Shown here: piece after piece, positions 15,001 through 18,000 of the stretch
Position numbering within the stretch: the first letter of the stretch is position 1
Layout: the number at the start of each line of letters is the position of its first letter
Assembly: GCA_034670305.1 (NCBI GenBank)
Contig: JAXMNT010000014.1
Span: forward strand, 1-64,000
Origin: Deltaproteobacteria bacterium
GTDB taxonomy: Bacteria; Myxococcota_A; Polyangia; Polyangiales; Houyiibacteriaceae
DNA: 64,000 nt
Direction of reading: 5' to 3'
Position numbers: made by a program

Positions 15001-18000
15001 CACAGCCACGCCGATGAGGAACAGGACAACGGTGAGCGTGCCCGCACCACCCGCCTCTCCCCCACCCGACGCAAACGCGACGGACGGCGCCGCAACGCTG
15101 GCGATGACGCCAAGCAGGAGTGCGGGCCACAGAGGTCGGGGAGATGGACGCATGGGGGGAAACAGTGTGAAGGCCCCAGCGAAAATCCGCGAAAGAATCG
15201 TGTGCTCACGTGAACAGAGGATCAGAGGCGTTCGGATGGCACCGGTGCAGTGCAAGGACACCCGACGCTGGGACCAGGTCACACCCGATGCCGGTTGGGC
15301 CGCGATTCGAGCCGTCTGAAGGGAAGGAGCGTCGCCTGGGTCCGTACTCTCCAACGTCATGAGCGCCAAAGACCTCAAGTCGCGTCCCTTCTCACCGGCG
15401 CCCCCGCGTCACAAACCGAGCGGCGTCTACCCGTGTGAGCCGGCTCCGCTCCCCGTGCCGATGATCACCGGAAACTACGACGCGCCGGCCATCCCGAAGA
15501 CGCCCATGGCCTCACCGGCGTACGGACAGCTCGTCGACGGCGCGCCGGAGCTCACCGAGCCGATCGACCTCACCGCGCTGGCGGCGGGCACGGTGGCTCC
15601 AGGATTCGTGGGGGCGACCACGCTTCGAGATGGGGACCTTCCAGCGCAGTCCCGCGAGCCCACCGACGAAGAGCTCGACGCTGCCTTTGGACCGGCGGTC
15701 GCGCGCCCGCTCTTCGAGCCCGAAGACCCCGCTTCGGGAGGCTTCCAGCCGGACCCCGAGACCGCATCGCCGTCCGAGCCCCCTTCGGGAGGCTTCGCCG
15801 GGCCGAGCGAGGAGACCGGTCCCGTGACGACGTTTGGCTACCAGATGCGTGACCCGGCCAGCGAAGCGCTGGACGAGATCGAAATCGAAATCGAGATCGA
15901 AGTCGAGACCCCGGTCCGCTTGGAGGCGGCACTGGCATGGCAGAGCCAGAGCCAGCTCTGGGTGGACGGAGAAGGCACCATCGGCATCTTCTTGGCCAGC
16001 TACACCGTCCTTCCGATCGGCGCGGAGATCGAACTCCACGTGCACCTTCCCGGCGAGCAGCCGTTCACCGCCCCCGCCCGGGTCTGTTGGCTGCGCGAAG
16101 GCAGCGAGGGCAGCTGGCCGGGCCTCGGCCTGGAGCTCGAGTGGCTCACCCTCGAAGCGCACGATGCGATCGCGCGCTTCGCGCAGATGCGCCGCCCGTT
16201 GGCTCTGTAGGATCGCGCGACGTAGCAGGTCGCTGAAAAGCGACCTGCTCCCTTGCCGTTGCCCTTGCCCGTGCCCTTGCCCGCGTCGTGGACGCCGTGT
16301 GTTTCGCGACGGCGAGGCCGCGAATCGGAGCCCGATGCCGAGCGGACGAAGCCGCCGGGCATCGGTCGGTGCTACGCGGCGCAGCTCCGCAGCCGCGCGA
16401 CGCCTAGGAGGTTGTATGCGGCGCCGGCCAGGCCTGCCGTGCGAACACTGATGCTCTGCGCGGACCTCATCAGCAGCTCCCGCGAGGCCGTGCTCACCTC
16501 CGAGACCAGATCGATCGCGCTGCGACTTCCGTCGTCGCCAACATCGCCGAGGGCGCAGGCGAGTTCAGTCCCAAGGAGAAGGCTCGCTTCTATCGGATGG
16601 CCCGGCGCTCCGCGATCGAGGTCGTCTCCTGGCTCGAAATCACGGACCGTCGGGCCGCGAATCGGAGCCCGATATCGAACGGGGCTCTCGCCCACCTTGA
16701 GCAGGTCGTCGCGATGCTCGTCGCGCTGATCAAGCGATCTGACCGCTGATCCGCGGGCAAGGGCAAAGGCGAGGGCAGGGGCAAGGGGCAGGCTGCGAGA
16801 ACGCCCTGCGGGCGTTCTTCAGCAGCCTGCTAGGCGGCTTGGGCCTGGGGCTCGGGTTCTGCGGCGGCGCGCTTCTTGGCTTCGCGGGCGGCCTTCTCAG
16901 CGGCGCGGCGGGCGCGGCGCTCCAGGTCCTTCGCTTCCTTCTCGGTGAACGCGTAGGGCACCCGGGTGCCCATCAGCTCGTCGAACCAGGGCTTGGTCAC
17001 ACACCAGTTGGCGTCCTGCTTCGGACCCATGTGGTGGTCGTAGTGCCAGGGCAGATGCTCGCGCGCCCATTCGGGGTCGAGGTGCGACTTCTTGTGGACC
17101 CGGTAGTAGTTGTAGCCGCAGTACCAGGCGGTCATCGTGAAGAAGGGCGCCACCGGGAAGAGGGGTGCGATGAGCAAGCCGGTGGCGACCAGCGCCGCCG
17201 CCTCTTTGCCCTGCGAGTGCGCACCGAAGACCGACTGGTCGTAGTGCGGATCCGCCATCTGGTGCTTTCGGGACTCCCGGTGGTGCTCGTGCCAGTGAAA
17301 CGCCCAGAAGCTGTCCTTCTTCTTGCCTACGCCGTGCAAGATGTACTTGTGCACCAACCATTCGGTCGCGTTCGAAGCCAGCAAAGCAAGGGGAATTCCA
17401 ATCACGGTGGTACCTCTTTCGGTCCTTTCAATACAATGACCAATGGGTCAGTGTTCCTATAACATGACGCTTCGGTCACCGTTTGGCAAGGGCACTGCGT
17501 AAACTTTGTGGCACCAAGGCCCTAGCAGGTCGCTGAAAAGCGACCTGCTCCCTTGCCGTTGCCCTTGCCCGTGCCCTTGCCCGTCGTGGACGCCGTGTGT
17601 TTCGCGACGGCGAGGCCGGGCATCGGTCGGTCCGCAGCCCGATATCGAACGGGCTCTCGCCCACCTCGAGCAGGTCGTCGCGATGCTCGTCGCGCTGATC
17701 AAGCGATCTGACCGCTGATCCGCGGGCAAGGGCAAAGGCAAGGGCAGGGGCAAGGGGCAGGCTGCGAGAACGCCCTGCGGGGGTTCTTCAGCCTGCCGCT
17801 TGGTTTAGCGGGGTGGGCCGACGCGGATGCCGTCGAGCACCATCGAGACCACGACTTGGGCGACCTGCAGCGGGGGCGCGTCGAGGTTGCCGCGCAGCTG
17901 AGCGAGGGCCAGTTGCTCCACCGCCCCGACCACCGCCATGGCGCTGACCTTCGGATCGGTGACGTTCAGGAGACCTTTGTCGACCGCCACCTGGGTCAAC

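What a model noticed while it worked through the whole genome (the two positions that open the first line are those of the whole stretch)
16222..16833. High-copy CTAG-flanked MITE derived from a four-helix-bundle gene cassette
A 180-670 bp element with CTAGCAGG...CCTGCTAG ends, terminal hairpins and inverted (CCCTTG)n/(CAAGGG)n blocks is present in well over 100 copies and ends 135 of 210 contig ends. Its long forms carry the decayed remains of a PF05635 gene instead of a transposase. Its G-rich blocks give a fifth of the genome's G-quadruplex motifs.
Evidence so far: - 246 end motifs and 31 intact pairs; 135 ends lie about 124 nt from a contig end. - Sequences read. - Gene remnant; PF05635 scores of 59-66 bits for these copies. 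- 130 of 246 ends supply a neighbour's TAG. The CTAG background is 535 at stops, 351 in genes and 517 elsewhere. - 248 of 1245 G4 motifs.
(Added by a program. Inside this text positions count along the whole contig: contig position 1 is position 1 of the stretch shown here. "Call 12" and the like, gene names such as g00115 and contig names such as C1 are that model's own, and its searches are not shown. The text may have been shortened before it was handed on; [...] marks where a part breaks off. The agent that wrote the report below was given it as the finding of a first reader that could run no searches.)

Follow-up and report, generated by a model that had tools for sequence, protein, structure and literature searches.

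The report
Cut-down copies of an IS5 transposon
This repeat is a family of shortened, non-autonomous copies of an IS5-type jumping gene that unusually carries a small four-helix-bundle protein gene beside its transposase, which may bear on where the similar genes inside ribosomal-RNA intervening sequences came from.

Summary
The window has a 612-bp copy (16222-16833) and a 281-bp copy (17522-17802). The genome has 151 left ends, 124 right ends and 36 intact pairs of 182-670 bp. 134 of 210 contig ends stop about 124 nt inside an arm.

The element is not a transposase-less cassette. It is an internal-deletion derivative of a 1.72-kb IS5-family insertion sequence. That parent was recovered whole from metagenome contigs (L053, L054):
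- CTAG, then a terminal inverted repeat folded into a hairpin
- a C-rich hexamer block
- an intact PF05635 gene on the minus strand
- an intact 354-aa transposase on the plus strand
- a G-rich hexamer block, a hairpin repeat, then CTAG

The window copy keeps the last 19-21 transposase codons on the opposite strand and about 75% of the PF05635 gene.

In full-length copies both genes are under purifying selection (dN/dS 0.10 and 0.09). Hexamer blocks were seen only in relatives that carry the PF05635 gene.

Unitig depth of about 50x suggests that many contig-end copies are full-length elements lost in assembly gaps.

The MITE is ordinary. The parent IS, with its conserved PF05635 gene and hexamer module, is a new variant.

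The parts
16222..16225 (.). Left target or duplication tetranucleotide. It reads GTAG here; the family consensus is CTAG.
   Evidence: 121 of 139 left ends have CTAG, 6 have GTAG.
16224..16249 (+). Left terminal hairpin: an 11-bp stem with a GAAA loop. It is the right inverted repeat of the parent IS (reverse strand) followed by an inverted partial copy of itself.
   Evidence: -16 kcal/mol, z -5.5; positions 2-211 of the copy match 1722-1513 of the 1722-bp parent at 96%. Searches show the same repeat in full-length ISs.
16250..16283 (+). C-rich hexamer block, (CCCTTG)-like, about 5.5 units.
   Evidence: The matching G-rich block lies between the transposase stop and the right repeat of L053.
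16284..16371 (-). Remnant of the parent's 3' untranslated region, downstream of the transposase.
   Evidence: mapping to the parent. One search shows the same sequence after the transposase stop in C73 and C10.
16372..16440 (-). Stop codon and the last 19-21 codons of the IS5-family transposase (remnant).
   Evidence: 16378-16440 on the minus strand, 86% identity to residues 32-52 of the 52-aa fragment.. Family (PF01609, NF033581).
16433..16471 (.). Deletion junction, about 39 nt with no match in the parent. It overlaps the last remnant codons because the two searches give slightly different limits. The deletion removed about 1.1 kb: the first 27 codons of PF05635, the divergent promoter region and about 330 transposase codons.
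   Evidence: copy positions 212-250 are unmatched, and parent positions 363-1512 are absent.
16472..16749 (+). PF05635 (four-helix-bundle, 23S rRNA IVS protein) gene remnant, from about codon 28 to the TGA stop at 16747-16749. It has no start codon and a patched stretch near 16655-16690.
   Evidence: 66.5 bits at 16486-16722. (67.1 bits, profile positions 30-105). (91.5% to the parent).
16755..16789 (+). G-rich hexamer block, (CAAGGG)-like, inverted relative to 16250-16283.
16788..16830 (+). Right terminal hairpin. It is the left inverted repeat of the parent IS plus an inverted partial copy.
   Evidence: -25.8 kcal/mol, z -3.3..
16830..16833 (.). Right CTAG. Its CTA is the TAG stop of the neighbouring minus-strand ORF 16830-17405.
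17522..17802 (+). Second, shorter derivative (281 bp). It has the left hairpin (17524-17549), the C-rich block (17550-17584), the last 26 or so PF05635 codons with the stop at 17716-17718, the G-rich block, and a decayed right end that has lost the last 10 or so nt and its CTAG.
   Evidence: positions 2-105 match parent 1722-1617, and 115-271 match parent 167-11.

Best explanation
The repeat is a family of internal-deletion derivatives (MITEs) of a 1.72-kb insertion sequence of the IS5 family.

The parent, read from end to end, has:
- CTAG
- an inverted repeat of about 22 bp that is folded back on an inverted partial copy of itself, giving the hairpin
- about five C-rich hexamers
- a 116-119-aa PF05635 four-helix-bundle gene on the minus strand
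- a divergent intergenic region of about 65 bp
- a 354-aa DDE transposase (DUF772 plus DDE_Tnp_1) on the plus strand
- about 95 nt of untranslated sequence
- about five G-rich hexamers
- the hairpin repeat and CTAG

How the derivatives arose (inferred). Deletions between the two arms removed most or all of the transposase and variable parts of the PF05635 gene. This left elements of 182-670 bp that keep both ends.

How they move (inferred). The transposase of full-length copies moves them in trans. Those full-length copies most likely sit in the assembly gaps of this genome. Insertion is into the rare tetranucleotide CTAG. In this 68% G+C genome CTAG often overlaps a TAG stop codon. The duplication restores the stop, so insertions at gene ends are tolerated. 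The end statistics favour a TA duplication inside a preferred C-TA-G site over a 4-bp duplication, but this is not proven.

Status of the PF05635 gene. In the parent it is a selected component. In the MITEs it is decaying and does nothing. Its role is unknown. My guess is a nucleic-acid-binding accessory factor that acts on the hexamer blocks.
For: Shown by tools:

1. Transposase remnants. Fragments of PF01609 / NF033581 lie inside or next to copies. 32 places in the genome match a 52-aa C-terminal fragment. tblastn with a full-length relative finds only pieces: residues 2-58, 100-143 and 251-354. Read directly, they are followed by the untranslated stretch, the G-rich hexamers and the hairpin end.

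2. Same ends on full-length ISs. ISs of about 1.27 kb in three related genomes (L035, L034, L037) carry the same termini, CTAGCAGG[C/T][T/C]GCTGAAAAACG. The arms are 19-25 nt long and 95-100% complementary. Their transposases score 268-271 bits on NF033581, cut-off 140.

3. The exact parent. L053 (1722 bp between the CTAGs) and L054 hold both genes intact between arms that match the window copy at 91-96%. Pfam gives 78 bits on PF05635, 76 on DUF772 and 62 on DDE_Tnp_1.

4. Selection. Between L053 and L054, dN/dS is 0.10 for the PF05635 gene and 0.09 for the transposase, at dS 0.36 and 0.41.

5. Coverage of the parent by assembled DNA. The arms are covered 120-160 times, the PF05635 part 8-18 times and the transposase core 0-2 times.

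6. Depth in public contigs. In four runs, repeat unitigs at 16289-16362 and 16472-16606 have 44-58 times the depth of the flanks. A 1043-nt unitig at about 50x runs 908 nt beyond 16472. Its first 30 letters there equal the intact PF05635 N-terminal region of L053.

7. Size cut-off. No copy longer than 670 bp is assembled inside a contig, and the smallest contig is 2063 bp.

8. Recent spread. Median arm identity is 98-100%.

9. Target. 212 of 253 ends abut CTAG, and 136 of 227 close a long open frame.
Against: - No full-length copy, and no transposase fragment over the NF033581 cut-off, is in this assembly. The autonomous partner in this genome is inferred from depth and from contig ends.
- The tool warns that contig depth is not a copy number and may include other organisms.
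- No empty site was found, whether paralogous, orthologous for related ISs, or as a joint in public contigs. Mobility is therefore inferred from structure and copy number.
- The duplication length is unresolved. Over all ends, 26 departures from CTAG lie at the outer bases and 7 at the inner bases. In 11 pairs the split is 11 outer and 3 inner, and the two tetranucleotides are identical in 0 of 11. That favours TA. But the closest named relative, ISAzs10, shows TTAG...TTAG in one copy and TTAG...TTAA in another, which fits 2, 3 or 4 bp.
- PF05635 carriers fall in three places on a quick transposase tree with non-carriers between them. The gene may have been gained more than once rather than being ancestral.
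Confidence: 0.85

Rival explanations
1. Cassette first. The mobile unit began as a free-standing PF05635 cassette bounded by inverted hexamer blocks. It was later picked up between IS5-type ends. The transposase fragments come from secondary insertions.
For: - Related genomes hold intact genes of this subtype bounded by inverted hexamer blocks, with no transposase and no clear IS ends. G013 has (CCCTCA)n...(TGAGGG)n and G012 has (AGGAAT)n...(ATTCCT)n.
- 33 of 34 stand-alone intact PF05635 genes in this genome have hexamer arrays beside them.
- PF05635 carriers are scattered on the transposase tree.
Against: - In L053, L054, L055, L056 and L057 the transposase lies inside the hexamer blocks, next to the PF05635 gene. 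Both genes have the same dS and low dN/dS.
- The window copy maps collinearly onto that parent with a single deletion.
- The G013 and G012 cassettes can equally be older transposase-less derivatives.
- This rival concerns the deeper origin of the parent, not what the window element is.
Confidence: 0.1
2. An element with hairpin ends moved as single-stranded DNA by a Y1 (HUH) transposase of the IS200/IS605 or REP-associated kind.
For: - Both ends carry strong hairpins close to the termini.
- The genome has 11 Y1_Tnp matches (36-40 bits, open frames of 233-249 aa). One, at C20:45721-46002, lies about 350 nt from a copy.
Against: - The ends are true inverted repeats shared with DDE-transposase ISs.
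- The copies contain DDE transposase remnants.
- The same tetranucleotide flanks both ends, unlike the asymmetric ends of IS200/IS605 (a recalled property).
- The Y1 genes are more plausibly tied to the small REP-like repeats nested in some copies.
Confidence: 0.03
3. An IS630/Tc1-mariner-type MITE. That family is recalled to insert into CTAG and duplicate TA.
For: CTAG at both ends, and end statistics that favour a TA duplication.
Against: - No DDE_3 (PF13358) match in the genome: 0 matches, 2 candidates scored.
- The remnants and the parent transposase are DUF772 plus DDE_Tnp_1 / NF033581.
Confidence: 0.02
4. Dead relics. The family expanded in the past and nothing moves now. The high-depth unitigs come from other community members, not from this genome.
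For: - No intact transposase is in the assembly.
- Many copies are decayed or nested with other repeats.
- Contig depth sums over organisms (warning).
Against: - Median arm identity is 98-100%.
- The depth ratio is 44-58 in all four runs although absolute depth ranges from 13 to 37.
- 134 contig ends stop in arms, and nothing above 670 bp is bridged.
Confidence: 0.12

Closest known systems
IS5 family insertion sequences (NCBIfam NF033581; Pfam DUF772 + DDE_Tnp_1). The closest named member seen is ISAzs10 of Azospirillum sp. B510.
   Same: - A single transposase of about 350 aa with the same domains.
- 57% identity to ISAzs10 over 89% of the protein.
- Inverted repeats that begin CAGG.
- A short duplication at a YTAR-like site. 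YTAR for E. coli IS5 is recalled; TTAG in ISAzs10 was seen.
   Different: - The parent here has a second, conserved gene (PF05635) divergent from the transposase.
- It has long composite ends with hexamer blocks and fold-back hairpins.
- ISAzs10 and the 1.27-kb relatives L034, L035 and L037 have neither.
Bacterial MITEs derived from ISs by internal deletion. One example is the IS5-related MITE with an internal minisatellite in Porphyromonas gingivalis (PMC4596501; only the title and abstract start in a search listing were seen).
   Same: - Short, with the parent's inverted repeats.
- No working transposase.
- High copy number, and tandem repeats inside.
   Different: - Here the copies are heterogeneous deletion products that still carry recognisable pieces of two genes.
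- The repeats are two inverted hexamer blocks inherited from the parent.
23S rRNA intervening sequences with an S23p (PF05635) ORF, as in Coxiella, Leptospira and Xanthomonas (PMC4990558; passages read).
   Same: - An element of 0.4-0.7 kb made of terminal inverted repeats around a PF05635 ORF.
- That paper cites two old hypotheses: that IVSs are remnants of transposition, and that the ORF served mobility.
   Different: - The copies here are intergenic, not in rRNA (no Rfam match at E up to 1 in C14:14986-18222).
- They have IS5 ends and CTAG.
- No sequence comparison with real IVSs was made.
Avd, the accessory protein of diversity-generating retroelements (PMC10053308, passages read; PDB 4DWL and 2GSC are named there).
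   Same: - The same fold family. The only sequence match among solved structures is 2gsc, E 3e-8, an entry with five chains.
- A small accessory protein of a mobile or mutagenic element.
   Different: - The partner here is a DDE transposase, not a reverse transcriptase.
- No RT, template repeat or variable repeat lies in the element.

Membership tests
IS5 family (parent element) | DDE transposase of the IS4/IS5 type (PF01609, NF033581). | tested here: met
   - Parent L053: PF05598 76 bits, PF01609 62 bits.
- Relatives L035 and L036: NF033581 268 and 271 bits, cut-off 140.
- In this genome only fragments were found: 42 bits at best, none over the cut-off.
IS5 family (parent element) | Terminal inverted repeats shared by the autonomous and non-autonomous forms. 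| tested here: met
   The same CTAGCAGG... termini are on L034, L035, L037, L053, L054 and L057 and on the window copies.
IS5 family (parent element) | Short target-site duplication (4 bp YTAR for the IS5 group; recalled). | tested here: inconclusive
   - CTAG is a palindrome, and no empty site was found.
- End statistics favour TA.
- ISAzs10 copies fit 2-4 bp.
MITE (non-autonomous IS derivative) | Small, with both inverted repeats, no functional transposase, and many copies. | tested here: met
   - 36 pairs of 182-670 bp.
- Transposase remnants of 52 codons or fewer.
- 275 ends by blastn.
MITE (non-autonomous IS derivative) | Mobilised in trans by a resident autonomous copy. | not testable with these tools
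   - Only indirect evidence: unitig depth of about 50x over the PF05635-to-transposase region.
- Contig ends stop inside transposase fragments on C67, C84, C73 and C10.
PF05635 (23S rRNA IVS protein / four-helix-bundle protein) | Profile match over the gathering score. | tested here: met
   Window remnant 66.5-67.1 bits, cut-off 33.8. Intact parent gene 78.1 bits.
PF05635 (23S rRNA IVS protein / four-helix-bundle protein) | Complete open gene in the window copy. | tested here: not met
   The match covers profile positions 27-105 only. The first 27 or so codons and the start are deleted. The second copy keeps about 26 codons.
IS630 / Tc1-mariner | DDE_3 transposase. | tested here: not met
   PF13358: 0 matches in the genome.
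IS200/IS605-type hairpin elements | Y1 transposase, hairpins near the ends, no inverted repeats, no duplication. | tested here: not met
   Hairpins are present and Y1 genes exist (11 matches). But the element has true inverted repeats and DDE remnants.
23S rRNA intervening sequence | Inserted in a 23S rRNA helix and excised by RNase III. | tested here: not met
   No Rfam family, rRNA included, matches at E up to 1 in C14:14986-18222. The flanks are protein-coding ORFs. Excision is not testable here.
Diversity-generating retroelement (Avd) | An adjacent reverse transcriptase with template and variable repeats. | tested here: not met
   The parent holds only the transposase and PF05635. The genome's 3 RVT_1 matches lie elsewhere, on C23, C10 and C67.

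The most novel reading that the evidence does not exclude
The PF05635 (S23p / Avd-like) four-helix-bundle protein and the inverted hexamer blocks form one functional module of a clade of IS5-family transposons. The pentameric protein would bind the roughly five hexamer units at each end, or the stem they form, and help or control transposition.

Three things would then be decayed or domesticated products of such transposons:
- transposase-less derivatives that keep the gene, such as the cassettes in G013 and G012;
- the 34 stand-alone PF05635 genes beside hexamer arrays in this genome;
- by extension, the S23p-bearing 23S rRNA intervening sequences.

That would settle the origin of IVSs and give PF05635 its first role outside DGRs. 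The 1410 hexamer arrays (2% of this genome) might be the footprint of the same system.
Probability: 0.25. Interest if true: 0.8.

Novelty: new variant of a known kind. Interest (0 to 1): 0.6.

Why it matters
Taken alone, the MITE is an ordinary IS5-family derivative. It explains why this assembly is broken into 105 contigs.

The parent is the interesting part. It is an IS5-family element that keeps a PF05635 gene under purifying selection beside its transposase, inside long ends built of hexamer repeats.

PF05635 proteins have no known function except as Avd in diversity-generating retroelements. The same gene sits in 23S rRNA intervening sequences, whose origin has been debated since about 1990. 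The hypotheses 'remnant of transposition' and 'ORF needed for mobility' are cited in PMC4990558.

A natural transposon that carries this gene with its transposase makes both ideas testable at the bench. One can run transposition with and without the gene, and test binding to the hexamer blocks.

My searches of the held library found no paper describing such an IS. The terms were:
- PF05635
- TIGR02436
- 'intervening sequence protein' plus transposase
- 'four helix bundle protein' plus 'insertion sequence'
- IS5 family, CTAG, MITE
- IVS, four-helix bundle, Avd

ISfinder could not be consulted, so a named IS with this passenger gene may exist there.

Tried and rejected
- Paralogous empty sites. 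I ran the 100-nt flanks of the 36 pairs against the genome. Only other repeats came up, such as a roughly 165-bp element with its own inverted repeats on C53, C66 and C1. No clean empty site was found.
- Orthologous empty sites for the related ISs L034 and L035 in three same-genus genomes. The flanks fall on different contigs, so there is no answer.
- Public contigs of four runs laid on 15300-18500. No joint skips exactly one element. The joints listed join arms of different copies.
- Exact 28-nt left end in 185,579 species genomes: 0 matches, with the window's own genome possibly left out.
- Rfam on five loci: no match at E up to 1.
- IS630 idea: no DDE_3 in the genome.
- Open-frame test for whether hexamer arrays are coding. 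It is uninformative at 68% G+C: 1151 of 1319 arrays and 1298 of 1409 random controls are 'spanned'.
- Complex prediction of the transposase with the PF05635 protein. The verdict was 'no answer' (score 0.00, mark 0.32). This counts neither for nor against binding.
- The careful tree search did not finish, so only the quick tree is used.
- One Pfam call failed on a reference with a stop codon. I repeated it without that item.
- Supplementary files of the cited papers were not consulted.
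Full report
**1. The observation**

The window is contig C14:1-64000 of a 7.93-Mb genome of 105 contigs with 68% G+C.

Window copies:
- A 612-bp copy lies at 16222-16833. It has a perfect 11-bp hairpin at the left end, a (CCCTTG)-like block, a PF05635-like reading frame, a (CAAGGG)-like block, a compound hairpin at the right end, and CCTGCTAG.
- Its left tetranucleotide is GTAG, not CTAG.
- A 281-bp copy lies at 17522-17802 with a decayed right end.
- A third CTAGCAGG at 1616 is a chance match.

Genome-wide counts:
- blastn with the two arms gives 151 left and 124 right ends, and 36 pairs of 182-670 bp.
- A regex on the inner repeat gives 139 left and 114 right ends. Of these, 121 and 91 abut CTAG.
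- 163 of 210 contig ends match the element in their last 200 nt. 134 of them run into an arm to the last base, typically 121-127 nt deep.
- Both hairpins fold far better than shuffles.
- PF05635 scores are 66.5, 65.4, 59.5 and 59.5 bits.
- 136 of 227 ends place their TAG in frame with an open frame of 200 codons or more. The other two frames give 80 and 21.
- CTAG is 14-fold under-represented: 1615 against 23418 expected. 212 of the 1615 are element ends.

**2.

A search of the genome for DDE_Tnp_1 gave three short matches to the last 40 positions of the profile. Two are at contig starts (C73, C10). One is inside a diverged copy on C5.

Read directly, C73 and C10 begin inside a reading frame that ends ...AAYNLLRVARL... 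This is followed by about 95 nt, the G-rich hexamers and the hairpin end. So the 'left arm' of the element, in the orientation of the PF05635 gene, is the 3' end of a transposase gene on the other strand.

Further support:
- The 52-aa fragment matches 32 places in this genome. One is 16378-16440 on the minus strand in the window.
- It scores best on NF033581, an IS5-family model.
- tblastn with a full-length relative finds only residues 2-58, 100-143 and 251-354, several of them at contig ends.
- No DDE_3 (IS630-type) gene exists in the genome.

**3. The parent element**

In the same bacterial family, 8 of 60 other genomes hold relatives of the fragment. Three carry full-length ISs of about 1.27 kb. 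Their transposases are 354-357 aa (NF033581 268-271 bits, cut-off 140). Their inverted repeats begin with the same CTAGCAGG[C/T][T/C]GCTGAAAAACG. These have no hexamers, no hairpins and no second gene.

A protein search with the fragment found 344-354-aa transposases 94-98% identical to it, on contigs of 1.6-1.9 kb. A scan of metagenome contigs with one of them returned L053 and L054 (92% and 90% identity).

L053 holds a complete element of 1722 bp between two CTAGs:
- the hairpin repeat
- the C-rich hexamers
- an intact PF05635 gene of 116-119 aa on the minus strand
- about 65 nt of divergent intergenic DNA
- an intact 354-aa transposase
- the untranslated stretch, the G-rich hexamers and the hairpin repeat

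Pfam gives 78 bits on PF05635 for the small gene, and DUF772 plus DDE_Tnp_1 for the large one.

The window's 612-bp copy maps onto this parent in two collinear pieces: positions 2-211 onto 1722-1513 at 96%, and 251-612 onto 362-1 at 91.5%. It is therefore the parent with about 1.1 kb deleted. The 281-bp copy has a larger deletion. Fragment C54 of this genome still holds the divergent region with both start codons.

**4. Are autonomous copies present in this genome?**

The assembly covers the parent's arms 120-160 times, the PF05635 part 8-18 times and the transposase core 0-2 times. Nothing longer than 670 bp is bridged inside a contig. The smallest contig is 2063 bp, so a collapsed IS-internal contig would have been dropped.

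Four public runs of one study hold 85% of the sampled words of 15300-18500. Laid on the window, their flank contigs have depths of 12.8, 13.4, 37 and 15.2.
- The repeat unitig at 16289-16362 has 681, 736, 1967 and 767, a ratio of 50-55.
- The unitig at 16472-16606 has 739, 690, 1956 and 670, a ratio of 44-58.
- In two runs that second unitig is 1043 nt long and extends 908 nt beyond 16472.
- The 30 letters shown there are identical to the N-terminal part of the intact PF05635 gene in L053.

On the parent map, 908 nt reaches about two thirds into the transposase. I infer that some 50 long, probably full-length, copies lie in the 60-odd gaps. Many of the 134 'MITE' contig ends would then be ends of the IS itself. 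The tool warns that contig depth is not a copy number and can include other organisms, so this remains an inference.

**5. Target and duplication**

Nothing beyond the tetranucleotide is duplicated.
- Over all ends, departures from CTAG sit mainly at the outermost base: 14 of 139 left ends and 12 of 114 right ends. The base next to the repeat departs in 2 and 5.
- The commonest outer change is C to G, not a transition.
- Among 11 pairs with TA at both ends that are not CTAG/CTAG, the two tetranucleotides are never the same. Examples are GTAG...CTAG, GTAG...CTAC and CTAG...CTAA. The departures are 11 outer and 3 inner.

This fits a TA duplication in a preferred C-TA-G site better than a 4-bp duplication followed by mutation. 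It is statistical evidence only.

ISAzs10 is the closest named IS, at 57% identity. It shows TTAG...TTAG in one copy and TTAG...TTAA in another. No empty site could be found.

Because CTAG often overlaps a TAG stop in this genome, and the duplication restores the stop, gene ends act as safe landing sites. In the window, the CTA at 16830-16832 is the stop of ORF 16830-17405.

**6. The PF05635 gene and the hexamer blocks are a conserved module of the parent**

- 7 of 80 metagenome loci (L053-L057, L069, L074) carry a PF05635 gene divergent from the transposase. So does 1 of 42 genome loci (L172, a member of the same family as the window's genome).
- Between L053 and L054, dN/dS is 0.10 for PF05635 and 0.09 for the transposase, at dS 0.36 and 0.41. 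Against L056 it is 0.29-0.36 and 0.20-0.21, at saturated dS.
- 62 loci have a complete transposase and enough flank. None of the 57 without PF05635 has a period-6 block on either side.
- Of the 5 with PF05635, 3 have blocks on both sides and 1 on one side by my strict criterion. The fifth (L056) has short blocks visible by eye.
- The unit differs between lineages (CCCTTG, CCCGTG, CCCCGT) but is always inverted between the two ends, with about five units.
- Carriers sit in three places on a quick transposase tree. This means either several gains or several losses, and these lineages are not independent samples.
- The only solved relative found by sequence is 2gsc, an entry with five chains. A review equates PF05635 with Avd of diversity-generating retroelements (PMC10053308, passages).

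What the protein does for the IS is unknown.

**7. Comparison with known systems**

The window element is a MITE of an IS5-family IS. That is a new member of a known kind.

The parent is an IS5-family IS with an extra selected gene and composite ends. I rate that a new variant.

It is not any of the following:
- an IS630-type element
- an IS200/IS605-type element, since it has true inverted repeats and DDE remnants, although 11 Y1 genes exist in the genome
- a DGR, since there is no RT in the element
- an rRNA intervening sequence, since there is no rRNA at the site

The architecture of the transposase-less forms that keep the gene is nevertheless that of an S23p-bearing IVS. An example is the roughly 480-bp cassette in G013, with (CCCTCA)n, an intact gene and (TGAGGG)n. 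The IVS literature records the unproven ideas that IVSs are transposition remnants and that the ORF served mobility (PMC4990558, passages).

**8. Verdict**

The MITE itself is ordinary and explained. The parent IS and the genome-wide link between PF05635 genes and hexamer arrays (see the items noticed in passing) deserve follow-up.

Noticed in passing
Whole genome. In the window: 10639-10875, 31860-32035, 33502-33589, 38291-38419, 53655-53723.: Tandem Repeats Finder reports 1995 arrays, of which 1887 have period 6 or 12. Merged, they make 1410 arrays covering 162 kb (2% of the genome), with a median length of 97 bp and a maximum of 490 bp. The commonest units are AAGCCG (328), AAGGGC (114), ACGGGC (75), AAGCGG (68) and ATCGGC (68). 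Different units often lie side by side, and some arrays start right after a stop codon. Whether they are coding could not be decided.
   Followed up: partly
Genome, for example C35:10682-10981, C46:59007-59297, C10:56795-57046.: Besides the decayed IS-borne copies, the genome has 34 intact stand-alone PF05635 genes. They form three families of near-identical paralogues. Each has conserved upstream DNA (small hairpins and a TTGACC box) and a terminator hairpin. 33 of 34 have a hexamer array within 700 nt upstream or 200 nt downstream, and 16 have one on both sides. Of 5000 random segments, 656 have any array and 13 have arrays on both sides. No IS ends were recognised around them.
   Followed up: partly
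Relatives G012, G002, G013, G008 and others.: PF05635 genes are multi-copy in much of the bacterial family. 22 of 31 genomes have matches, with up to 31 in a closed 9.1-Mb genome. They often occur as convergent pairs 40-100 nt apart.
   Followed up: no
C53:41040-41200, C66:123-286, C1:174862-174960.: Another small repeat of about 165 bp has its own inverted repeats of about 23 bp. One copy is flanked by two copies of the element on C66. Another is cut by a copy on C1.
   Followed up: no
C20:45090-45270, and inside several long copies.: Small REP-like repeats of about 95 bp, with a GC hairpin, are nested at ATAT-like sites. They occur twice in tandem inside a transposase remnant on C20, and also inside one stand-alone PF05635 gene (C19:96076-96249). 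The genome has 11 Y1_Tnp matches with open frames of 233-249 aa. One, at C20:45721-46002, lies next to such a copy.
   Followed up: no
C23:86418-87011, C10:168437-169069, C67:18832-19467.: Three reverse-transcriptase (RVT_1) matches of 77-80 bits, in open frames of 460-559 aa. Their type (group II intron, retron or DGR) was not determined.
   Followed up: no
L034:1778-1842 (relative G045).: A full-length related IS has its right inverted repeat duplicated 43 nt apart, followed by CTAGCTAG.
   Followed up: no
Window 16655-16690 compared with 16320-16336.: The 17-nt stretch at 16320-16336 occurs again at 16660-16676, inside the PF05635 remnant. There it replaces the sequence seen in other copies. 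This looks like a small conversion patch between the two halves of the element.
   Followed up: no
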